Below, in pieces: positions 37,469-45,847 of a stretch of 64,000 nucleotides of DNA. The DNA is taken from assembly GCA_038248895.1 (NCBI GenBank), contig JBBRWZ010000002.1, positions 9,847-73,846 on the forward strand, in the 5' to 3' direction. Position numbers and translations under genes: made by a program. The DNA comes from Candidatus Limnocylindria bacterium (GTDB taxonomy: Bacteria > Chloroflexota > Limnocylindria > QHBO01). Positions within the stretch are counted from its first letter, which is position 1. Each line of letters opens with the position of its first letter. The notes under the pieces are model-generated. The model was not told where the DNA came from. It did no database searches and worked only from the letters and a program-made list of their open reading frames with translations.

Positions 37469-37711
37469 TCAGTCGTGCGGAGCGCGCTTCAGCGGCCGAT
37501 GCCAGCGCCGGTACGCCTCGGCGGCGGTGCAGCCCACGTCGAGGACGTCACCATCCGTGCGCACGTCGGGACGCGGAACGTAGAGGTCGACGGGCACCGC
37601 GCTCGAGGTCCGCACCAGCAGGTAGTCCGCGAAGACCGCGTCGACGGTGCCGATCCGGCGGCGTCCACTGCCCGTGACCGGCGCGCCAACGCGCGCTTCG
37701 CCATCGCTCAT
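37469..37711 (-). CDS. Small hypothetical protein (PRC-barrel/DUF2171-like, tentative)
   Basis: 80 aa. Its ATGA overlap with the upstream lipid-kinase stop supports translation. The pattern G.V..V..DYLLV......VDLYVP recalls small PRC-barrel proteins. The family assignment is weak. Confidence 0.5.
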   Translation of the reverse strand: MSDGEARVGAPVTGSGRRRIGTVDAVFADYLLVRTSSAVPVDLYVPRPDVRTDGDVLDVGCTAAEAYRRWHRPLKRAPHD

Positions 37712-38628
37712 CCATGCACCGTACCCGATGCCCGCGGCGCGGCGACGGCCACGGCCACCGCGCCCGGCTCAACGGTCACTTCCAGCGGCACCGCCCCGAA
37801 CGGCTCACCGTCGAGGTGAATGAGGGCCGCGTCGCCATCGATGTGCAGCTTGCTGAACGGAGCCACCGACACCGCCGGGTGACCGATATGGCGTCCGCGG
37901 TAGAGGCCGGGCAGCTGGCGCAGGGCGGCGAGCTTCGCGATGTCCCCGACCACGCACAGGTCCAACTGCGCGTCGTCGAGGCGCGACGCCGGGCTGATGC
38001 GCATGCCGCCGCCGTACCACGGGCCGTTGGCGAAGGCCGCGAAGAGCACCGGGCCATCGATGCGCCGGTCGTCGTCGAGGGTCATGCGCAGTGTCGCATT
38101 GCGCCCGCGCCGCAGCTCGTCGAGCGTGGTCAGCAGGTAACCGGCGCGGCCCCGCTGCCACCAGCCGCGCGCCACAGCCATGCGCGCCGCGATGGCGGCG
38201 TCGAACCCAACCCCGCCCGCGACGAGGAATCGCCGCTCGCGACCATCGGAGCACGCGAGGCCGGCGTCGATGACGCGCACTGCGCCGCGCAGGGCGACCG
38301 CCAGGGCGGCGACCGGTTCGCGCGGCAGGCCCAGGGCGCGTGCCAGGTCGTTGCCGTTACCGCCCGGCACGATCCCGAGCACGGGTGGAGTGGCGACGCC
38401 GCGCAGGCCGTTGGCCGCAGCCTGCACCGTGCCCTCGCCCCCGACCACGATCAGCCGCTCCACGCCCCGCGCGGCGGCCTCGTGCGCGATGCGCTCGGTG
38501 TCGGCAGCCGACGCTCCCGATGTCAGGCTGCCCCCGGCGTCGGCCACCGCGGCCCGCAGCCGCGCGGCGGCGCGTTCCGCACGGCCCGACCCGGCGGTTG
38601 GATTGACGACGACCAGGAAGCGGTCCAT
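37708..38628 (-). CDS. Diacylglycerol kinase-family lipid kinase (YegS/DagK-like)
   Basis: Start ATG 38628 (MDRFLVVVNPTAGSG). Carries GGEGTV (a GGDGT variant) and PGGNGNDLARALG. Confidence 0.88.
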   Translation of the reverse strand: MDRFLVVVNPTAGSGRAERAAARLRAAVADAGGSLTSGASAADTERIAHEAAARGVERLIVVGGEGTVQAAANGLRGVATPPVLGIVPGGNGNDLARALGLPREPVAALAVALRGAVRVIDAGLACSDGRERRFLVAGGVGFDAAIAARMAVARGWWQRGRAGYLLTTLDELRRGRNATLRMTLDDDRRIDGPVLFAAFANGPWYGGGMRISPASRLDDAQLDLCVVGDIAKLAALRQLPGLYRGRHIGHPAVSVAPFSKLHIDGDAALIHLDGEPFGAVPLEVTVEPGAVAVAVAAPRASGTVHG

Positions 38629-38678
38629 TGCGCGACCGATTCTGCGTTCTGCTGTCAACGCCGTATCCTGTTGGACCG

Positions 38679-39572
38679 ATGACGACGCTGCTCCGCCGCG
38701 CTCTTCGCGGCGCCGCCTGGGCCGTCGCGCTGCTCGCGGGCGTGGTTCTCGTCCAGGTCGTCCGGCTCCGTGGCGTCCGGCTCCTGCCCGGCTACCCCGG
38801 CTTCTGGATCAGCCACACCGTCCTGCCGTCGCGCGGCGCGCCCAGCGGTGACGCGCTGCGGTTTGTCGTCTTCGGCGATTCGACGACCGTTGGCGTCGGC
38901 GTCGACCGTCCCGAGGACTCGCTCCCCCATCGACTCGCCTGGCACATCGCCGATGCCTCGGGATTGCCGGTGCGCGTGATCAGCTTCGGCTGGGCTGGAG
39001 CGCGCATGCACGCGGTCCCGACCGATCAGATCCCACGCGCCATGCGTCCGCGCGACGCCGGCGCGGCGTCGTGGCTCGCCACCGCCGACATTGTCGCCAT
39101 CGTGGTTGGCGCCAACGACGCCACGCACCGCACGCGGCCCGCGGCGTTCCGGCGCGATCTCCGCGCCTCTTTGGCGGCGATTCGCGACGCGGTTCCGGCA
39201 GCGGACGTGGTCGTCGCCGGCATTCCGCGCCTGCGCGGCGTCCTCCGCCATCTCGAGCCACTGATCACGCTGGCCGATATCGGAGCGGCACCGTTGCGTC
39301 GCGTCCAGCGCCGCGAAGCGGCGCGAGCGGGAGTCACGTTCGCGGACCTGGCGCGCGACCTCCTCCCGCGCCTCATCGGGCGGGTGGATCGTCGAACAGC
39401 GCTCGCGTCCGACCGCTTCCATCCCGGACCGGCGGTCTACGCCGCCTGGGCGGAGGTCATTGCCGATGCGCTGCGCGCAGCAGACGTGGCTACGATGCGA
39501 CCTCGGGCGGCGGCACCTGGAGCATCGGCATTGCTCGTTCCTGACCCTCCCAGCGACGGAAGCGACGACTGA
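38679..39572 (+). CDS. Membrane-anchored SGNH/GDSL hydrolase
   Basis: Has an N-terminal TM helix (AAWAVALLAGVVLVQVV) and SGNH blocks I (VVFGDSTTVG), III (VGANDATH) and V (SDRFHPG). Its 3' end overlaps the convergent glycosyltransferase by 83 nt. Confidence 0.85.
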   Translation: MTTLLRRALRGAAWAVALLAGVVLVQVVRLRGVRLLPGYPGFWISHTVLPSRGAPSGDALRFVVFGDSTTVGVGVDRPEDSLPHRLAWHIADASGLPVRVISFGWAGARMHAVPTDQIPRAMRPRDAGAASWLATADIVAIVVGANDATHRTRPAAFRRDLRASLAAIRDAVPAADVVVAGIPRLRGVLRHLEPLITLADIGAAPLRRVQRREAARAGVTFADLARDLLPRLIGRVDRRTALASDRFHPGPAVYAAWAEVIADALRAADVATMRPRAAAPGASALLVPDPPSDGSDD

Positions 39573-41460
39573 GGCCGGCCAGGTCGGACCGAAGCAGATC
39601 GGTCAGCCGGACGCGCTCGATGCCGGCGACGGCATAGTCGCCCACGAAGATGGCGCGCGCCAGGTCTCCAGCGGCGGGGTCCTGCCCGCTCGCGAACTCG
39701 AACGCGTAGTGAAGCTCACCGGTCGGCGCCTCACGCACCGAGCGGACGGTGGCCCACAGCGAGATGGGGCGCTCGGCGAGCCCGAACGTGACGAGATGTC
39801 GGTCGCGCTCGGCGAGGCGTTCCCGCGTGGCGAGGAGCGTTCCCCCCACCGACACGTCCTGGATGCCGGCCGCGACCCCGTCGACCGAGCCGGGGACGTC
39901 GACGGCGAAGCGGACGCCCGCCCGCCGCTCACCGGCAAAGCGCAGCGAGCGCACGCGACGGATGGCGAGCCAGACGAGGCCCGCGTTGATCGTCAGCCAG
40001 CCGAACGCGCCCCACGCCGCCCACGGCTCGCGATACGTGATCGGCAACACACCGAGCCGAGCGAGGGCGAAGACGACGGCGGCGACGAACGACAGGGCAA
40101 GCACCGCGCGCAGGGGAGCCGGCGCCGGCACGCGACCGCGCGCATCGCCGGTTCGACCCTTGGGCGTGACCTCGAAGCGCGGCACGCGGCTGGTGAGAAG
40201 GGTCAGCGTGGCGCGCAGGTTGGGCGCCATCCGCACCAGCTCGAAGAGCACGGAGAGGACCGGGCGGTAAGCGCCGCGACCGAGCCGGTACAGCGCCAGC
40301 TGCTGCAGCCCGTACGTGGCACCGAAGGCGAGCGCGAAGGTGCGGCCATCGGCCAGGATCGGGATCTGGCCGGTGAGCAGGACCGCGATCGGCAGCAGCA
40401 GGAAGCCCAGCGTCCGCCAGGCATCGAACCACCCGAGCAGCGTCGACGCGTACGCGAGCCGCTGGGACAGCGACAGGCCATCGACGGTGAGCGGGTTCTC
40501 CGTCTTCAGCACCTGCATCGCTCCCGTCCCCCATCGGTTTCGCTGCAGCTGGTACTGGGCCGCATCGTCGGCAGCCAGACCACGCGCCAGGACCTCGTTG
40601 TGGTAGACGCTGCGCCATCCGGCGCGATGCAGGCGGATCGTGGTGTGGATGTCCTCGGTGATCGTCTCCACCGCACAGCCGCCGACGTCGCGCAGCGCGC
40701 GCGTCCGCACCACCGCATTGGTCCCGCACCAGAACGCGGCATTCCAGCGGTTCTTCCCCGGCTGGATGAGCCGATAGAAGAGCGTCTGCTCGTGGAACTG
40801 CTCGCCGAACGTCCGCCCCGAGCCGTGCTCGAAGCTGCTGATGTTGTAAAACTCCTGCGGCGTCTGGACGACGGCCAGATGCGGGTCGCGGAAGTAGCCC
40901 ATCGTGTTGCGCAGGAAGTCGGGACGAGCGACGTGGTCGGCATCGAGGATGGCGAGCAGGTCAGTCCGGACGTGGCCAAGGGCGTGGTTGACGTTGCCGG
41001 CCTTGGCGTGCTCGTGCGTTGGGCGGGCCAGGTAGTGAGCGCCCAGCTCCGCGGCCATGCGGCGCACCTCCGGCCGATCCCCGTCATCGAGGACCCATGT
41101 CTCGTGCGCGGGCTCGAGCGCCACCGCCGCGGCCACGGTCGGCAGCAGCACCTCGCGCCCTTCGTTGTAGGTCGGGATGAGCACCGCCACGCTGTGGTTC
41201 GGATCAGGCTCGAGCAGCGGTGGACGACGGTCGACGTCCCACAGGCTAAAGGTGAACAGCGCCAGCCCCAGCACAGCGTGCACTTCGAGGAAGAGCATGG
41301 GCACGGACAGGTACCACGCGGACAGGTTGAGGGTCGCCAGCGCGCGCCACGCCAGGTAGGCCACGCTGACGGCGACGGCGACGATGGCCACCAGGCGCGT
41401 CAGGGCCACCGCGTCCAGCGGCTCACGGCGCGGAAGGCCCAGGGAGCGGAGATCGATCAC
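39490..41460 (-). CDS. BcsA-like processive family-2 glycosyltransferase with C-terminal PilZ (c-di-GMP-binding) domain
   Basis: GT2 motifs are VLIPTYNE, VLDDGD, ILDADHV, VQTPQEF, ITEDIHTT and Q-R-N-R-W (QxxRW). Multiple TM helices are present. PilZ motifs are RRAGVR (RxxxR) and DVSVGG (DxSxxG). The start is taken as GTG 41460; the only upstream start is ATG 41622, whose 54 extra codons look non-coding. Confidence 0.88.
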   Translation of the reverse strand: MIDLRSLGLPRREPLDAVALTRLVAIVAVAVSVAYLAWRALATLNLSAWYLSVPMLFLEVHAVLGLALFTFSLWDVDRRPPLLEPDPNHSVAVLIPTYNEGREVLLPTVAAAVALEPAHETWVLDDGDRPEVRRMAAELGAHYLARPTHEHAKAGNVNHALGHVRTDLLAILDADHVARPDFLRNTMGYFRDPHLAVVQTPQEFYNISSFEHGSGRTFGEQFHEQTLFYRLIQPGKNRWNAAFWCGTNAVVRTRALRDVGGCAVETITEDIHTTIRLHRAGWRSVYHNEVLARGLAADDAAQYQLQRNRWGTGAMQVLKTENPLTVDGLSLSQRLAYASTLLGWFDAWRTLGFLLLPIAVLLTGQIPILADGRTFALAFGATYGLQQLALYRLGRGAYRPVLSVLFELVRMAPNLRATLTLLTSRVPRFEVTPKGRTGDARGRVPAPAPLRAVLALSFVAAVVFALARLGVLPITYREPWAAWGAFGWLTINAGLVWLAIRRVRSLRFAGERRAGVRFAVDVPGSVDGVAAGIQDVSVGGTLLATRERLAERDRHLVTFGLAERPISLWATVRSVREAPTGELHYAFEFASGQDPAAGDLARAIFVGDYAVAGIERVRLTDLLRSDLAGLSRRFRRWEGQERAMPMLQVPPPEVAS

Positions 41461-41684
41461 GCCGGTTATTGAGCCGCGCCACGGGTCATGCGGCGATGAC
41501 CCGAATCTCCCATCCGACGGCGGTACCACCGCGCATAGGACCGAAGGTGGTGCGTCGAGACACCGACTCGGCGCGTGAGCCTTGCCGAGGACCGCCCGGC
41601 TCTGGCATCCTGACTCCCTCACGCGGGAGGGCGTGTCCTCGCCTCCCCACGGTTCCCACCGCGTGCCTTGTGTGGAGCGTGCCT

Positions 41685-42953
41685 GTGCGGCGTCCGATGC
41701 TGGTCCTCGTCGCCCTGGCCCTGGCCGTCGGCCTGGCCGGGCAGGCGACGCCTGCGCGGGGCGCGGAGGTCGCGGTCAACGTCGCGATCATCGTCGGTCC
41801 CGTCGGGGCGGAGCTGACGCCGGTCTACATCGACATCGCCGAGGCCGCCGCAGCAGCCGCGGAGGCGCACGGAGCGACCGTCCGCCGCGCCTATTCGCCG
41901 GATGCCACGGCCGACAATGTTCTCGCGGCCGTCGACGGTGCGAACATCGTGGTCTACCTGGGCCACGGCGTGGGAACGCCGAACCCGTACAGCGATCACC
42001 CGAATCCGGCCACCACCAACGGCTGGGGCCTGAACGGGCCGGGGCGTCGGGGCGATCACGCCGACTCGTGGCAGGACGGCAGCCTCGCGTACTACGGCGA
42101 GGCATGGATCGCGGCCCACGCGCACCCCGCGCCGGGGTGGGTGATGATCTACTCGAATGCCTGCTACGCCGCCGGCGCCAGCGAGCAGTGGATCGGCCCC
42201 GCGACTGAGGCGGAAGCGGCCACGCGAGTCACCGCCTACAGCCACGTGCCGCTCGCCGAGCTCGGGGCCAGCGCCTACTTCGCCGTCGACTTCTTCAAGG
42301 GCGCCGCCCACATCATCGAGCGGATCCTGGCGACGCCCGACGCGACGTACGGACAGATCTTCGCCGGTGAGGCGACGTTCACGCCAGATGCGCTGACGAT
42401 GCTGGCCGACACGAAGGGCGGCGCGTCACAAGTCTGGCTGCACCGCTCCGCATACTTCGACGGCCGGCTCGACTACTGGTACGCCTTCGCCGGCGACCCG
42501 AGCGCCACGCCGTCGGCAACGATGCTCGCGGGCGTCGCGATCGGCGCGGCGCCCGGCAGCGGGCAGGTGAGCGGCGCCATCAACGGTCGCGCCTCCAGCT
42601 ACGCCGGCACCCCAGGATGGGAGGGCCGCCCGACCGTGGCGCTGCCCATCGCGGAGGGTATCGCGCCATCGGCGACGGAGCCGCCGACCGTGCTGGTCTG
42701 CGCGGATCGGTGCGCCGAGCTGCCGGTCGTCGACTCGTGCCCGTGCTACGCCGGCACGCCCGACGCTCGAGTGGCGAACCTCTCGCTCAGCGCGTGGGAG
42801 CTCATCTCGGACAAGCCGCTGGAGGAGGGGCTCATCGCGGTCAGCGTGATCCTCGATGGCTCCACGGAGACGCCTCCGGCACCGATGGCTGACAGCTCGC
42901 CCGAGGCTGGCCCGGCGACCCACCGCATCCCATTGGCCGACGCACCCTACTGA
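41685..42953 (+). CDS. Secreted two-domain protein: N-terminal putative His/Cys-dyad (clan CD caspase-fold-like) domain + C-terminal RlpA/expansin-type DPBB-like domain
   Basis: GTG 41685 lies 7 nt after GGAG (41674-41677) and gives the signal peptide VRRPMLVLVALALAVGLAGQATPARG/AE. Strand-loop motifs are IVVYLGHG (His codon 41964-41966) and VMIYSNACYAAG (Cys codon 42162-42164). The C-terminal GRASSYAG...VLVCADRCAELPVVDSCPC...ANLSLSAWELIS...GLIAVSV resembles RlpA-type double-psi beta barrels. Confidence 0.65.
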   Translation: MRRPMLVLVALALAVGLAGQATPARGAEVAVNVAIIVGPVGAELTPVYIDIAEAAAAAAEAHGATVRRAYSPDATADNVLAAVDGANIVVYLGHGVGTPNPYSDHPNPATTNGWGLNGPGRRGDHADSWQDGSLAYYGEAWIAAHAHPAPGWVMIYSNACYAAGASEQWIGPATEAEAATRVTAYSHVPLAELGASAYFAVDFFKGAAHIIERILATPDATYGQIFAGEATFTPDALTMLADTKGGASQVWLHRSAYFDGRLDYWYAFAGDPSATPSATMLAGVAIGAAPGSGQVSGAINGRASSYAGTPGWEGRPTVALPIAEGIAPSATEPPTVLVCADRCAELPVVDSCPCYAGTPDARVANLSLSAWELISDKPLEEGLIAVSVILDGSTETPPAPMADSSPEAGPATHRIPLADAPY

Positions 42954-42983
42954 GCCTTCGGCCGCCGGCCGGATCGGTGGCGA

Positions 42984-44510
42984 TCAGACGACGTTGACGC
43001 GCGCCTCGTGATAGCCGCGCGCACCATCCGGCGCGGGATCGGTGACACGCGCCTCCTGCAGCATCCCCTTGCCGTCGGTGGCGCGGACGCGCAGCGTGTG
43101 GGAGCCGCGCTCGGCCTGCCAGCGGTAGATCCACTGCACCCAGGTCTCGTCGCTGATGGCCGGGCCGAGCCCGGCTGCCTGCCAGGCACCCTCGTCGACC
43201 TGGACCTCGACGCCGGAGATGCCACGAGTCGGCGCCCACGCCACGCCCGCGACCGCCACCTCGCCGGCGGGCACGGATCCGCCGCGCGGCACATCGATGC
43301 GTGACTGGAGCAGGATCGGCCCGTTCTTCGCCCAGCCGAGCGGGATCCAGTAGCCGTCGAACGCGTCGAGCGTGGTGAGCTCGATGTTCGTCAGCCATTT
43401 CGTCGCCGATACGTAGCCGTACAGACCCGGCACGATGAGCCGCGCCGGGAAGCCGTGATCGGCGTTGAGTGGCTCGTCGTTCATGCCGACCGCGACCAGT
43501 GCACCGGCGCCCGCGTCATTGAGCCAGAGGGTCGGGAAGCCAGCCGTCCACCCGTCGAACGAACGGCCCACGAGCTGTGATGCACCGGGCTTGACGCCCG
43601 CTTCGTCGAGCAGCGCACGGAGGGGCACGCCGGTCCACTTTGCGTTGCCGACGAGATCGCCCCCGACGCGGTTGCTGACGCAGGCGATGGTGACGTAACG
43701 CTCCTCGAGCGGCCGCGCCAACAGCTCGTCGTAGGTGAGCGTCAGCTCGCGGTCGACCATCCCGTCGATGGTGAGGCTCCAGGTCGACGCGTCGAGGCGG
43801 GGCACGAGCAGCTTGGTGTCGATGCGGTAGAAGTTCTCGGTGGGGACCACCAGCGGTGAAACGCCCTGCGCCGTGATCGTGGGCGTCGGCAGCGGCTTGG
43901 CCGGCATCGTCGGCTCCGGGAGCACGACGGGCAATGACCGGCCGGACGCCGCGGGCTTGCGTTCGAGGAGATAGCGGCCCACCCCGCCACCGACCAGCGC
44001 GAGGGCCCCGAGGCCCACGGCGGTGCCGAGGAACTGGCGCCGGCCCCAGGCCGGCATCTCCGCCACGGGCCGTGCGGCGACGCCTCCCCGGCCGATGAGT
44101 CGGCGCAGCGTCCAGGCGCCGCTGCCGCCGACAACGAGCGCGGTCGCACCGGCCAGAATTGGATCCACCAGCGGGTCGCGCAGGCTGGTGACGGCGGCAG
44201 CGGCAGCGACCATGGCAATTCCGATTGCCCCGATCCGCCAGTCGCGCCGCGCGAAGAGGCCGAGCAAGGCAGCGAGCACCAGCGCCACCGCCGCCACGAA
44301 GAGGTTCAGCACGAGCTTGTCCGCGTCGCCGAACAGGTCAACGACGAACTGCTTGGCGCCCGGAGGCTGCAGGTCGATCACCAGCGCCCCGATCGCGGTG
44401 ATGAGCGACGGCGCGTTGTCGATGAGACCCGCGACCAGCTCGGACAGGCCCAGCCCGATGCCGCCGGCAACGAGGCCGGCAATGACGCCACGAGTGCGAC
44501 TCGCCTGCAT
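42984..44510 (-). CDS. Membrane-tethered molybdopterin-dependent oxidoreductase (sulfite oxidase / YedY-MsrP family)
   Basis: Start ATG 44510 gives 508 aa. About 4 N-terminal TM helices are followed by an internal twin-arginine-like segment (WGRRQFLGTAVGLGALALVGG). The Mo-domain carries YRIDT, TIACVSNRVGG and KWTGVPL, followed by an Ig-like dimerisation domain. Confidence 0.87.
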   Translation of the reverse strand: MQASRTRGVIAGLVAGGIGLGLSELVAGLIDNAPSLITAIGALVIDLQPPGAKQFVVDLFGDADKLVLNLFVAAVALVLAALLGLFARRDWRIGAIGIAMVAAAAAVTSLRDPLVDPILAGATALVVGGSGAWTLRRLIGRGGVAARPVAEMPAWGRRQFLGTAVGLGALALVGGGVGRYLLERKPAASGRSLPVVLPEPTMPAKPLPTPTITAQGVSPLVVPTENFYRIDTKLLVPRLDASTWSLTIDGMVDRELTLTYDELLARPLEERYVTIACVSNRVGGDLVGNAKWTGVPLRALLDEAGVKPGASQLVGRSFDGWTAGFPTLWLNDAGAGALVAVGMNDEPLNADHGFPARLIVPGLYGYVSATKWLTNIELTTLDAFDGYWIPLGWAKNGPILLQSRIDVPRGGSVPAGEVAVAGVAWAPTRGISGVEVQVDEGAWQAAGLGPAISDETWVQWIYRWQAERGSHTLRVRATDGKGMLQEARVTDPAPDGARGYHEARVNVV

Positions 44511-44587
44511 GCGCTCAGTCAATCGGATTGGCGTGACGAATGTGTGACGGGGCGGCGCGGGCGGTCTGCGCTCACCGCCCGCCGAGC

Positions 44588-44998
44588 CTAGTCCGCCTCG
44601 TTGGGCTCGAGGGCGAGCGCCGCCGAGTTGATGCAGTAGCGCAGCCCTGTCGGCTGGTCCGCCGCATCGTCGAACACGTGACCCAGATGGCCACCACAGC
44701 TGGCGCAGGTCACCTCGGTGCGCGTCATGAACAGCGTGCGATCGGTGTGGGTCTCCACGGCACCGTCGGCCGCCGGCTGGTAGAACGACGGCCAGCCGGT
44801 GCCGGACTCGAATTTCGTGCCGGCATCGAAGAGCTTGGCACCGCAGCCGGCGCATCGGTATGAGCCATCCGCATGCTCGTTCCAGAAGCGACCGCTGAAC
44901 GGTCGCTCGGTGCCCTTCTCACGCAGCACGCGGTACTGTTCGGGGGTGAGCTCCGCGCGCCACTCGGCGTCGGAGCGGTCCAGTTTCTGACGTGTCAT
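44588..44998 (-). CDS. msrB: Peptide-methionine (R)-S-oxide reductase MsrB
   Basis: Carries the CAGCGAKLF / [12 protein letters not shown] zinc CxxC pairs and GTGWPSF. The start is ATG 44998 (alternative 45016). Confidence 0.93.
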
Positions 44999-45052
44999 GG
45001 TGCGAGCGTACGGCATATCCGTGACAGACCGATGACGCCGTACCATCGGACG

Positions 45053-45847
45053 ATGCGCCGCCAGCTCCTGCCGTCCACCCTCCTCCGCGCCTGCGTCCTA
45101 ATGCTCAGCGTCGCGACGGCCTGCACGCTGCCGCCGATCACGACGCCGACGCCGCGCCCCACACCCACGGTCGCGCCGACGCCGAACCCAACCGCCACGC
45201 CGACGCCGACGGCACCGACACCCAGCCCCACCCCCGACCTCGGCGCGGTGCCCGCCTTCGACGCCGGGGCCACCGTGGCGACCATGACGGACGGCCTCCG
45301 CATCCGCCGTCTTCCCGGCGTCGACCGCTCGATTCTCGTGCAGCGCCTGCCCGCCGGCACGCGGCTCGAGGTCGTGCTCGGGCCATTGCCCGTCGACGGC
45401 CTCGGCTGGTATCTCGTCCGCGACATCGACGACGCGGACCCATCGTTCGGCGAGGGCTGGATCGCCGCCGGCTTCGATCCGGAGCCGTTCATCGCGGCCA
45501 CCGGCGATGGATCAACGGGGAGCTACGTCAGCTCATTCGCGCACGCCGGCGACGCCGAGTTCGGACCGCTGGCGGTGCCCGACGACCAGGTGGCAATCCG
45601 CTGGGCGGCCATCGACCCGGACGGCGTGGGCTGTGTCTTCGCGCTCGACCTGCGGACCGGAAGCGGTGACCCCGTGCCGGCAATCCGTGCCGCCGTTGGC
45701 AACGGGCCGACGCCCGGCGTCCTCGGCAGCGACTACTTCACTGACCAGCCGGCGTTGCGGGGCCAGCTGTTCGCCACCGTGCGGAGTGACTGCGCATGGG
45801 CGATCACGGTGGTCCGCGTTCTGCCGTCACCCAGCGGCTCACCATGA
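45053..45847 (+). CDS. Lipoprotein with Pro/Thr-rich linker and SH3b-like domain
   Basis: ATG 45053. The signal/lipobox is [24 protein letters not shown]. The linker is [31 protein letters not shown]. The SH3-like segment is GLRIRRLPG...[21 protein letters not shown]. Confidence 0.7.

What the first reader, a model, noticed from the sequence alone, without database searches (positions are those of the whole stretch)
38679..42953. Orphan PilZ-containing BcsA-like synthase flanked by a membrane SGNH hydrolase and a secreted DPBB protein, with no BcsB or other bcs genes
Seen in sequence:
- The glycosyltransferase has the full processive GT2 signature (DDG, DAD, TED, QRNRW). It also has a C-terminal PilZ domain with both c-di-GMP-binding motifs (RRAGVR, DVSVGG).
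- No BcsB/C/Z-like gene, GGDEF/EAL gene or export component lies nearby.
- Instead, a TM-anchored SGNH hydrolase converges on it. A secreted two-domain protein (putative His/Cys peptidase-like domain + RlpA/expansin-type DPBB-like domain) is divergently transcribed across a 224-nt spacer.

Established: PilZ-BcsA couples c-di-GMP to beta-glucan synthesis. SGNH enzymes often O-acetylate or de-acetylate polysaccharides. DPBB domains bind or cleave glycan chains.

Inference: a minimal c-di-GMP-gated exopolysaccharide module for a monoderm envelope, with an unusual accessory set.
Basis: partly seen in the sequence, partly recalled or inferred. Interest (0 to 1): 0.6.

Follow-up and report, generated by a model that had tools for sequence, protein, structure and literature searches.

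The report
Stand-alone PilZ-bearing BcsA-like glucan synthase
A soil Chloroflexota (Limnocylindria) genome carries a single-gene, BcsB-independent cellulose-synthase-like enzyme with a c-di-GMP-sensing PilZ domain, a kind already known from Gram-positive bacteria, and its two odd neighbours turn out to be an independent gene pair rather than dedicated helpers.

Summary
Window 39490-41460(-) encodes a 656-aa BcsA-family synthase. All catalytic, gating-loop and PilZ motifs are present and conserved across the family. The AlphaFold model superposes on solved BcsA over its full length. It is flanked by a TM-anchored SGNH hydrolase and a secreted two-domain protein (P3).

BcsB was absent from all 16 carrier genomes searched, GH8/BcsZ from all 9 genomes searched and Omp85 from all 6. 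The host is a Limnocylindria MAG, not an actinobacterium.

The "minimal module with unusual accessory set" reading is not supported:
- The synthase is a patchy single-gene trait (20 of 151 class genomes, 3 of 5 in its own genus).
- A same-genus genome has 79 nt where the window has the 2,065-nt synthase segment.
- Five synthase-less genomes keep Mo-enzyme–P3–SGNH–lipid kinase intact.
- A sister clade and actinobacterial relatives carry the synthase among unrelated genes, without P3 or SGNH.
- P3 has its own conserved promoter-like element, also present without the synthase.
- P3's DPBB-like domain is missing in the closest relatives.

Best reading: a self-sufficient, probably c-di-GMP-gated β-glucan synthase-translocase for a monoderm. 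Its closest functional precedent is Romboutsia RiGT2. It is a new member of a known kind, of modest interest.

The parts
39490..41460 (-). BcsA-family processive GT2 synthase with a C-terminal PilZ domain, 656 aa. It has 2 N-terminal TM helices, a GT-A domain, interface helices, 4 further TM helices, a PilZ beta-barrel and a C-terminal helix.
   Evidence: - Pfam, NCBIfam and PDB sequence hits.
- It is an exact called gene in the public collection.
- AF2 model: pLDDT 85.7, pTM 0.86.
- Foldseek top hits are BcsA 9b8v_E, 4p00_A and 4hg6_A, at E 3e-39 to 9e-32 and TMq 0.74-0.79.
40501..41193 (-). GT-A catalytic domain (residues ~90-320) carrying LDDG, HAKAGN, DAD, QTPQ, FWCGT, TED and QRNRW.
   Evidence: Pfam Glyco_tranf_2_3 covers residues 90-312. 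The motifs are conserved in 70 of 72 family members.
39643..39924 (-). PilZ domain (residues ~513-606) with RRAGVR (RxxxR) and DVSVGG ([D/N]hSxxG).
   Evidence: - Pfam PilZ scores 23.6 bits against a 22.5 cut-off.
- The AF2 model shows a six-strand barrel at 518-589 followed by a helix, at pLDDT ~90.
- The motif residues are invariant in 39 homologues.
39473..41537 (.). The 2,065-nt segment (synthase gene plus 77 nt upstream) that is replaced by 79 nt in a same-genus genome lacking the synthase.
   Evidence: blastn of L084 (G066) against the window. Homology runs to 39472 and resumes at 41538.
38679..39572 (+). Membrane-anchored SGNH/GDSL hydrolase, 297 aa, with one N-terminal TM or signal-anchor helix. 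All four SGNH blocks are intact (GDS, G, GxND, DxxH).
   Evidence: Pfam Lipase_GDSL_2 at 1e-20. The blocks are conserved in 27 orthologues.
39490..39572 (.). 83-nt antisense overlap of the 3' ends of the SGNH and synthase ORFs.
   Evidence: - ORF coordinates.
- SGNH tail length after the DxxH block varies from 21 to 71 aa among orthologues.
- The synthase tail after residue 643 has pLDDT below 50.
41685..42953 (+). Secreted protein P3 (422 aa), an uncharacterised family. It has a signal peptide, an N-terminal alpha/beta domain with invariant GHG and NAC motifs after consecutive strands, a linker, and a C-terminal DPBB-like barrel.
   Evidence: - No Pfam or NCBIfam hit above threshold.
- Alignment A1.
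- AF2 model at pLDDT 70.9.
- Foldseek hits to DPBB designs at prob 0.77-1.0 and E 0.03-0.19, i.e. not significant.
- Sub-threshold DPBB_1 and Peptidase_C25/C50 hits.
- 901 representative clusters carry the N-terminal domain.
41582..41611 (+). Conserved promoter-like element of P3: TTGCCG, 18-nt spacer, TGG-CATCCT.
   Evidence: Alignment of 24 P3 upstream regions. The TG and the -10 A2, T3 and T6 positions are invariant or at least 90% conserved. The element is present in most of the 24 upstream regions, including 4 of the 5 synthase-less genomes with the intact block (L082-L085). That it acts as a promoter is inferred.

Best explanation
The central gene encodes a self-sufficient synthase-translocase of the BcsA family.

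Proposed mechanism:
- A cytoplasmic GT-A domain polymerises UDP-glucose.
- It threads the nascent beta-glucan through its own six-helix membrane channel.
- The linkage is most probably beta-1,4 and cellulose-like, but this is unproven.
- The C-terminal PilZ domain holds the gating loop (FEVTPK) shut until c-di-GMP, made by some of the genome's eight GGDEF proteins, binds RxxxR/[D/N]hSxxG.

Because the cell has no outer membrane, no BcsB, BcsC or BcsZ-type partners are needed. The polymer emerges directly at the wall.

The gene is an accessory, single-gene trait in Limnocylindria. The tree and identity gradients fit vertical inheritance with frequent loss.

The SGNH hydrolase and the secreted protein P3 beside it are a separate, older pair of envelope proteins with their own promoter-like element. 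They are most plausibly wall- or envelope-remodelling enzymes. They share a variable slot between a conserved Mo-oxidoreductase gene and a lipid-kinase gene. They are not dedicated subunits of the synthase.

Shown: domain architecture, motif conservation, absence of bcs partners, phylogenetic distribution and gene order.
Inferred: substrate and product, c-di-GMP gating, and the functions of SGNH and P3.
For: Synthase identity:
- Pfam, NCBIfam and PDB sequence matches.
- The AF2 model (pLDDT 85.7) superposes on solved BcsA, including the PilZ domain.
- Every catalytic, gating-loop and PilZ motif is conserved across 72 or 39 family members.

c-di-GMP input:
- The genome has 8 GGDEF genes.
- No other PilZ was detected at genome-level E <= 1e-3.

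Partner independence:
- BcsB is absent from the window's genome and from 15 other carrier genomes. Controls hit in E. coli and B. subtilis.
- GH8 is absent in 9 genomes.
- Omp85 is absent in 6 genomes, while all seven diderm controls hit.
- Neighbours in clade B are HflX, MiaA, MiaB, a PHP-domain protein, a YmdB-like phosphoesterase and RNase Y. That reading comes from inspection of the representative sequences, not from an HMM scan.
- Neighbours in Actinomycetota are unrelated (PadR, an AMP-ligase, methyltransferases, TetR).

Precedent: RiGT2 of Romboutsia ilealis is a stand-alone GT2+PilZ synthase without bcsB and is active on its own in yeast (PMC10374906).

Independence of the flanking genes:
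- The synthase is found in 20 of 151 class genomes, 9 of 35 genera, and 3 of 5 in its own genus.
- Full-length P3 orthologues occur in 16 genomes, 6 of which lack the synthase.
- Five synthase-less loci keep Mo-enzyme–P3–SGNH–kinase.
- There is a clean 2,065-nt versus 79-nt indel against a congener.
- Gene-order variants map to a few subclades of the synthase tree.
- The P3 promoter-like element is conserved with or without the synthase.
- P3 lacks its DPBB-like domain in L001-L003 and G066.
Against: - Within clade A the synthase always lies within ~3 kb of SGNH and/or P3. This holds despite at least three or four local rearrangements: Mo|SYN|P3|SGNH, Mo|P3|SYN|SGNH, SYN|SGNH|P3, and after the kinase. 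Selection for proximity would produce the same pattern.
- SGNH enzymes do modify exopolysaccharides in other systems.
- The PilZ Pfam score is only just above threshold.
- In RiGT2 a motif-bearing PilZ showed no c-di-GMP binding or activation, so gating is not guaranteed.
- The window's genome is 83% complete, so absence of BcsB in that one genome is soft. The 15 other genomes mitigate this.
- A non-homologous functional substitute for BcsB cannot be excluded by HMM searches.
Confidence: 0.68

Rival explanations
1. Synthase, SGNH hydrolase and P3 form one functional exopolysaccharide module. SGNH (de)acetylates the nascent glucan at the outer face of the membrane. P3 binds or trims the chain through its DPBB-like domain. 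Together they replace BcsB/Z/C in a monoderm.
For: - Of 32 informative clade-A loci, 30 have SGNH and 28 have P3 within ~3 kb of the synthase. The trio stays together through several rearrangements.
- SYN and SGNH are convergent neighbours in the window subclade, L026, L021, the four P3-less loci and L015.
- The SGNH catalytic blocks are intact and the domain is predicted to face outward.
- The DPBB-like fold has weak support.
Against: - The pair persists unchanged in 5 synthase-less genomes.
- The synthase works in other contexts in 33 clade-B loci and 10 more distant loci (8 Actinomycetota, 1 Dehalococcoidia, 1 unclassified Chloroflexota), with no P3 or SGNH orthologue nearby. Clade-B genomes have only distant paralogues of the P3 N-terminal domain, whether or not they carry the synthase.
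- Four clade-A loci lack P3 and two lack SGNH.
- The DPBB-like domain is missing in the window's closest relatives.
- P3 has its own promoter-like element.
- The surrounding block is syntenic housekeeping DNA, so adjacency has little weight.
- None of the neighbours examined (lipid kinase, Mo-enzyme) is an MBOAT-type acyltransferase, which known glucan O-acetylation systems pair with the SGNH-like component. That MBOAT pairing is from own knowledge and was not searched genome-wide here.
Confidence: 0.17
2. The enzyme is a stand-alone synthase, but its PilZ domain is a structural or autoinhibitory element that does not respond to c-di-GMP, as reported for RiGT2. Control would then be transcriptional or by another ligand.
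For: - RiGT2 keeps RxxxR and [D/N]xSxxG yet showed no c-di-GMP binding (ITC, SPR) and no activation, while deleting PilZ abolished activity (PMC10374906).
- The PilZ Pfam score here is marginal (23.6 against 22.5).
Against: - The six motif residues are invariant across 39 sequences down to 50% identity, while the rest of the domain varies.
- The genome invests in 8 GGDEF proteins and has no other detectable PilZ receptor.
- The RiGT2 binding tests used an isolated, GFP-fused PilZ made in yeast, a caveat the authors raise themselves.
Confidence: 0.2
3. The product is not cellulose but another beta-glucan, for example a mixed-linkage (1,3;1,4) glucan as made by RiGT2 or BgsA, or a beta-1,3 glucan.
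For: - The protein scores well below the NCBIfam equivalog cut-off for cellulose synthase (TIGR03030: 367 against 699 bits).
- A BcsB-less, PilZ-bearing relative makes mixed-linkage glucan.
- Sequence motifs do not discriminate linkage.
Against: - The closest solved and annotated relatives are all cellulose synthases.
- The acceptor-site motifs (QTPQ, FWCGT, QRxRW) are BcsA-like.
Confidence: 0.35

Closest known systems
RiGT2, the stand-alone GT2+PilZ (1,3;1,4)-beta-glucan synthase of the Gram-positive Romboutsia ilealis (PMC10374906)
   Same: - Similar size (~640-660 aa).
- Fewer N-terminal TM helices than BcsA.
- D, D, D and QxxRW motifs, a gating loop, and a C-terminal PilZ with both motifs.
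- No bcsB clustered with the gene.
- Monoderm host.
- A single polypeptide is sufficient for synthesis, shown for RiGT2 and inferred here.
   Different: - Different phylum (Chloroflexota versus Bacillota).
- No direct sequence comparison could be made here.
- The product here is unknown.
- RiGT2 did not respond to c-di-GMP in vitro, whereas here the binding residues are invariant across the family.
BcsA of the BcsA-BcsB cellulose synthase (Cereibacter sphaeroides 4HG6/4P00; E. coli 9B8V/9FMV)
   Same: - Same fold over the full length (TMq 0.74-0.79).
- 26-28% identity.
- All catalytic motifs, the FxVTxK gating loop, the PilZ RxxxR/[D/N]hSxxG motifs, and an acidic residue aligned to the E. coli 'GLAtE' Glu.
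   Different: - No BcsB in any of the 16 carrier genomes searched, and no BcsZ in any of the 9 genomes searched.
- BcsC was not searched for directly. Omp85 is absent from the 6 genomes searched, which makes an outer-membrane exporter unlikely.
- Two rather than four TM helices before the GT domain. The alignment starts at residue ~69 of 4HG6 and ~201 of the E. coli protein.
- Below the TIGR03030 equivalog cut-off.
CslA-GlxA(-DtpA/CslZ) glucan system of Streptomyces, and clostridial Ccs acetyl-cellulose operons (reviewed in PMC8892547)
   Same: BcsA-like synthases in monoderm bacteria with non-canonical partner sets. The clostridial system includes SGNH-like and MBOAT acetylation components.
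   Different: - CslA lacks PilZ and is coupled to a copper radical oxidase (own knowledge).
- The clostridial operons keep BcsB and BcsZ homologues.
- Here no partner is conserved with the synthase.
RlpA/expansin-type DPBB proteins and clan CD (C25/C11/C50-type) cysteine peptidases, as comparators for P3
   Same: - A C-terminal ~95-residue barrel with sub-threshold DPBB_1 hits, and non-significant Foldseek matches to DPBB designs.
- An N-terminal alpha/beta domain with His-Gly and Cys directly after two consecutive strands, as in clan CD.
- Secreted.
- Paralogues are fused to Big_5, FlgD_ig and M23 domains.
   Different: - No hit reaches any curated threshold.
- No significant PDB structural match for the N-terminal domain (best E 4e-3, flavodoxin-like folds).
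- Catalytic function is untested.

Membership tests
BcsA-family processive GT2 beta-glucan synthase | GT-A domain with the D, DxD, TED and QxxRW motifs | tested here: met
   LDDG(124), DAD(173), TED(268) and QRNRW(306) are present. They are conserved in 70 of 72 members. Pfam GT2 families score 1e-19 to 3e-28.
BcsA-family processive GT2 beta-glucan synthase | Integral membrane channel with interface helices and an FxVTxK gating loop | tested here: met
   - The AF2 model has helices at 15-43, 46-72, 331-363, 372-393, 400-422, 448-468 and 479-504.
- Full-length Foldseek superposition on 4p00, 4hg6 and 9b8v.
- FEVTPK is at 429-434, with F429 and K434 invariant.
BcsA-family processive GT2 beta-glucan synthase | C-terminal PilZ domain with RxxxR and [D/N]hSxxG | tested here: met
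   - Pfam PilZ scores 23.6 bits, above the 22.5 cut-off.
- R513, R517, D535, S537 and G540 are invariant.
- The beta-barrel is modelled at pLDDT ~90.
- Actual c-di-GMP binding cannot be tested here.
Cellulose synthase catalytic subunit, NCBIfam TIGR03030 equivalog | Score above the curated equivalog cut-off (699 bits) | tested here: not met
   367 bits over residues 23-548. It is a homologue but not an equivalog, so the product cannot be assumed to be cellulose.
Canonical Bcs secretion system (types I-III) | BcsB co-subunit encoded with, or at least in the same genome as, BcsA | tested here: not met
   PF03170 is absent from G000 and from 15 other carrier genomes. Controls were positive in E. 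coli and B. subtilis.
Canonical Bcs secretion system (types I-III) | BcsZ (GH8) endoglucanase and an outer-membrane exporter | tested here: not met
   PF01270 is absent in 9 genomes. No Omp85 in 6 genomes. BcsC itself was not searched for.
Stand-alone (BcsB-independent) PilZ-GT2 synthases such as RiGT2 | No bcsB, a reduced N-terminal TM region, and a monoderm host | tested here: met
   The criteria are as described in PMC10374906.
Stand-alone (BcsB-independent) PilZ-GT2 synthases such as RiGT2 | Specific sequence relatedness to RiGT2, and activity of the lone polypeptide | not tested
Activity needs an experiment.
SGNH/GDSL hydrolase | Blocks I (GDS), II (G), III (GxND) and V (DxxH) | tested here: met
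   GDST(66), GWAGAR, GANDA(144) and DRFHP(245) are present and conserved in 27 orthologues. Pfam match at 1e-20.
Exopolysaccharide O-acetylation machinery (Wss/Alg/Ccs type) | SGNH-like component paired with an MBOAT acyltransferase next to the synthase | tested here: inconclusive
   The immediate neighbours are a DAGK/YegS-like kinase and a Mo-oxidoreductase. The families of the syntenic block were read by inspection. None is an MBOAT. No genome-wide MBOAT search was run.
DPBB (RlpA/expansin-like) domain, for the P3 C-terminus | Match to DPBB_1 or a double-psi beta-barrel fold | tested here: inconclusive
   - DPBB_1 hits are sub-threshold, in 6 of 21 orthologues, best E 0.018.
- Foldseek matches to designed or VCP DPBB domains have prob 0.77-1.0 and TMt 0.5-0.68, but E 0.03-0.19.
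- pLDDT of the domain is 63-94.
Clan CD cysteine peptidase, for the P3 N-terminal domain | Caspase-like alpha/beta fold with a catalytic His(-Gly) and Cys after successive strands | tested here: inconclusive
   - GHG(89-91) follows strand 84-88 and NAC(154-156) follows strand 148-153. Both are invariant.
- Peptidase_C25 scores E 0.0068-0.13 and C50 scores 0.29.
- Foldseek gives flavodoxin-like folds. Caspases appear only at prob 0.13.

The most novel reading that the evidence does not exclude
In the genome-reduced soil class Limnocylindria, this one polypeptide could be the whole c-di-GMP-to-matrix pathway. It would be the only PilZ receptor of the cell, making and exporting a wall-associated glucan without any partner. 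In that reading, its repeated retention next to the SGNH/P3 pair reflects real functional coupling: the pair opens or edits the wall so that the polymer can pass.

Some clade-B genomes additionally carry a catalytically dead paralogue that still has intact PilZ motifs. That paralogue might act as a regulatory or structural co-subunit, standing in for BcsB.
Probability: 0.15. Interest if true: 0.55.

Novelty: new member of a known kind. Interest (0 to 1): 0.3.

Why it matters
It extends BcsB-independent, PilZ-bearing glucan synthases beyond the one characterised Bacillota example. The family now includes an abundant, uncultured soil lineage (Limnocylindria) and related Actinomycetota.

It offers a compact single-gene candidate for testing how a BcsA-type enzyme works and is gated without BcsB.

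It is also a caution on method. Adjacency inside a lineage-wide syntenic block looked like a novel accessory set, but the link dissolved once synthase-less relatives and a sister clade were examined.

Tried and rejected
- Actinobacterial origin, suggested by 71% GC, was rejected. Homologue and locus titles place the window in Chloroflexota, class Limnocylindria.
- A c-di-GMP riboswitch or other known RNA in 37500-45500: nothing found. The only hit was a chance miRNA match at E 0.86.
- The consensus sigma-70 and terminator scan of 38400-43100 was uninformative: 0 promoters and 1 chance-level terminator. The P3 promoter-like element appeared only through comparative alignment.
- Sequence searches of PDB for SGNH and P3 gave only chance-level hits.
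- Foldseek of the P3 model gave no match at E <= 1e-3.
- GC3-based ORF calling in the fetched loci mis-called the Mo-enzyme in some loci, so gene presence was taken from tblastn.
- Horizontal transfer as the source of the patchiness was considered but not favoured. Identity gradients of the synthase parallel those of its neighbours. The tree recovers family-level clades with gene-order variants mapping to subclades.
- Literature search found no paper linking Limnocylindria and cellulose synthase.

Full report
**What is there.** The window is 70-74% GC around the locus. It lies on contig C2 of a 2.3-Mb MAG with 129 contigs, 83% complete. Homologue names and locus titles place it in Chloroflexota, class Limnocylindria, not Actinobacteria.

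The finding covers three genes:
- An SGNH hydrolase at 38679-39572(+).
- A BcsA-like synthase at 39490-41460(-).
- A secreted protein, here called P3, at 41685-42953(+).

The first two exact proteins, and a 422-aa form of P3, are called genes in public collections. Outside them lie a DAGK/YegS-type lipid kinase (37708-38658, -) and a membrane-anchored molybdopterin oxidoreductase (42984-44855, -).

**The synthase.**
- Pfam finds GT2 families at up to 3e-28, Cellulose_synt at 1e-8, and PilZ just above its cut-off (23.6 against 22.5 bits).
- NCBIfam TIGR03030 (CelA) gives 367 bits, well below the equivalog cut-off of 699.
- PDB sequence search gives E. coli BcsA at 1e-77 and R. sphaeroides BcsA at 7e-64.
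- An AlphaFold2 model built on 39 homologues has pLDDT 85.7 and pTM 0.86. It shows two N-terminal TM helices, the GT-A domain, interface helices, four more TM helices, a PilZ beta-barrel (518-589) and C-terminal helices.
- Foldseek places it on BcsA structures over the full length, at E 3e-39 to 9e-32 and TMq 0.74-0.79. Plant CesA and hyaluronan synthases rank far behind.
- All functional motifs are present: LDDG, HAKAGN, DAD, QTPQ, FWCGT, TED, QRNRW, the gating loop FEVTPK, and the PilZ motifs RRAGVR and DVSVGG. They are conserved in 70 of 72 family members.
- R512, R513, R517, D535, S537 and G540 are invariant in 39 sequences down to 50% identity. The second motif fits the refined [D/N]hSxxG definition (bioRxiv 10.1101/814665).

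**Absence of partners.**
- BcsB (PF03170) is absent from the window's genome.
- It is also absent from 15 further genomes that carry this synthase family, several of them assembled into megabase contigs. The same search hits E. coli and B. subtilis controls.
- GH8/BcsZ is absent from 9 genomes.
- Omp85/BamA is absent from 6, while all diderm controls hit. This is consistent with a monoderm envelope.
- The genome has 8 GGDEF proteins. No other PilZ was detectable at genome-level E <= 1e-3.
- No known RNA family lies in the locus, including c-di-GMP riboswitches.

**Are the neighbours accessories?** Eighty related loci were fetched and compared by tblastn and ORF clustering. A tree of the synthases was built. 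The loci fall into three groups.

*Clade A* (31 tree rows, 36 loci, 65-84% identity, support 100):
- The synthase sits in a block that is syntenic over ~15 kb: MsrB, threonine aldolase, Mo-enzyme, [synthase], P3, SGNH, lipid kinase, a small protein, PaaA-like genes, ThrRS.
- Within the block the synthase takes different positions. It lies between the Mo-enzyme and P3 in an 18-row subclade. It lies between P3 and SGNH in the window's subclade, L026 and L021. It lies after the kinase in L007.
- Four loci have no P3 and two have no SGNH.
- These variants map onto subclades, so few rearrangement events are needed.

*Clade B* (34 rows, 33 loci, 58-63% identity, support 98):
- The synthase lies between HflX and MiaA/MiaB...RNase Y. 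These are housekeeping genes, read from the representative sequences rather than scanned against Pfam.
- No P3 or SGNH is present.

*More distant relatives* (Actinomycetota and Dehalococcoidia):
- Neighbours are unrelated: PadR, an AMP-ligase, an alpha/beta-hydrolase, methyltransferases, TetR.

**Phylogenetic profile.**
- Across 151 class genomes the synthase is present in only 20. That is 9 of 35 genera, and 3 of 5 genomes in its own genus. One copy (G075) is split into two frames.
- Full-length P3 orthologues occur in 16 genomes, six of which lack the synthase.
- The loci of five of those six were fetched with enough flank to read. All show Mo-enzyme–P3–SGNH–kinase intact with no synthase.
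- Against the same-genus genome G066, homology runs up to window position 39472 and resumes at 41538. G066 has 79 nt in place of the 2,065 nt that hold the synthase gene and 77 nt upstream of it.
- An alignment of 24 P3 upstream regions reveals a conserved promoter-like element, TTGCCG-18 nt-TGnCATCCT (window 41582-41611). A GGGGGA Shine-Dalgarno-like box and a GTG start follow. The element is recognisable in most of the aligned regions, synthase-less genomes included (not in L081).
- So most of the 'divergent spacer' is P3's own, pre-existing control region.
- The C-terminal DPBB-like domain of P3 is missing in the window's nearest relatives (L001-L003, G066).

The residual argument for coupling is that the trio stays close through several rearrangements. 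I give that reading about 0.17.

**What the neighbours are.**

SGNH:
- It has one N-terminal hydrophobic anchor.
- All four catalytic blocks are conserved in 27 orthologues.
- Its substrate is unknown.

P3:
- It belongs to an unannotated family. All homologues are 'hypothetical protein' with no Pfam domain.
- Its N-terminal domain occurs in at least 901 representative clusters. It is found fused to Big_5, FlgD_ig/CHU_C or Peptidase_M23, which points to the cell surface.
- The AF2 model is moderate (pLDDT 70.9).
- GHG and NAC motifs are invariant and sit directly after consecutive strands. Sub-threshold Pfam hits are to Peptidase_C25 and C50. DPBB_1 hits appear in 6 of 21 orthologues. Foldseek matches the C-terminal barrel to DPBB designs, but no match reaches E <= 1e-3.
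- An envelope or peptidoglycan-remodelling role for the SGNH-P3 pair is my inference.

**Comparison with what is known.** The closest functional precedent is RiGT2 of the Gram-positive Romboutsia ilealis.
- It is a ~637-aa GT2+PilZ synthase with no bcsB and a reduced N-terminal TM region.
- It is active alone in yeast and makes (1,3;1,4)-beta-glucan.
- Its PilZ carries both motifs, but c-di-GMP neither bound nor activated it in vitro (PMC10374906).

That paper shows two things. Orphan PilZ-BcsA-like synthases in monoderms are a known kind. And neither the product nor c-di-GMP gating can be read off the motifs alone. Reviews of Bcs systems describe the Streptomyces CslA and the clostridial acetyl-cellulose operons as the other monoderm variants (PMC8892547). 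No paper links Limnocylindria with cellulose synthesis.

**Verdict.** This is a new member of a known kind. The family itself is undescribed and common in soil metagenomes: more than 120 clusters at 65% identity or above. Interest is modest (0.3).

Noticed in passing
L035:9870-12002 (+) and L039:4266-7763 (+): In two clade-B genomes a tandem paralogue sits next to the intact synthase.
- Its catalytic motifs have decayed: HAKAGN to DGKAGN/GGRAGN, FWCGT to VWSGT/VWTGS, TED to AEA/APD, QRxRW to QRRRH/QRQRR.
- Its PilZ motifs RRxxVR and DLSLSG are intact.
- The two dead copies form their own long-branched clade (support 100).
- It may be a c-di-GMP-binding pseudo-synthase partner.
   Followed up: partly
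window 41582-41611 (+): A conserved promoter-like element, TTGCCG-18 nt-TGG-CATCCT, lies upstream of P3. An SD-like GGGGGA box and a GTG start follow. It is shared by most of the 24 upstream regions aligned, including 4 of the 5 synthase-less genomes with the intact block.
   Followed up: partly
L001:868-1899, L002:6785-7879, L003:6790-7965, L084:2851-3687: The closest relatives of the window, in the same genus, have P3 without the C-terminal DPBB-like domain. The gene ends right at the Mo-enzyme gene. The window's own genome also has stand-alone paralogues of each P3 domain (G000:C48:17026-17829 and G000:C1:46018-46371).
   Followed up: partly
G075:C2:357304-359173: In one family member the synthase is split into two adjacent frames, covering residues 17-476 and 480-640. 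This is either a probable pseudogene or an assembly frameshift.
   Followed up: no
whole genome G000: The genome has eight GGDEF-domain proteins. No PilZ domain other than the synthase's own was detectable at genome-level E <= 1e-3, and even that one falls below the genome-wide threshold. The synthase may therefore be the only PilZ-type c-di-GMP receptor in this small genome.
   Followed up: partly
L006-L029 type loci, e.g. L006:6468-9917: In the majority clade-A arrangement the membrane-anchored Mo-oxidoreductase (sulfite-oxidase family) and the synthase are co-oriented and only ~100 nt apart, which suggests a possible operon. The Mo-enzyme is nevertheless retained in synthase-less genomes.
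   Followed up: partly
L021 (JAICUY010000085.1): A 7-kb contig binned into a 'Steroidobacteraceae' (Pseudomonadota) MAG carries the Limnocylindria-type P3–synthase–SGNH–PaaA arrangement. It nests inside clade A of the tree. This is probably a binning contaminant.
   Followed up: no
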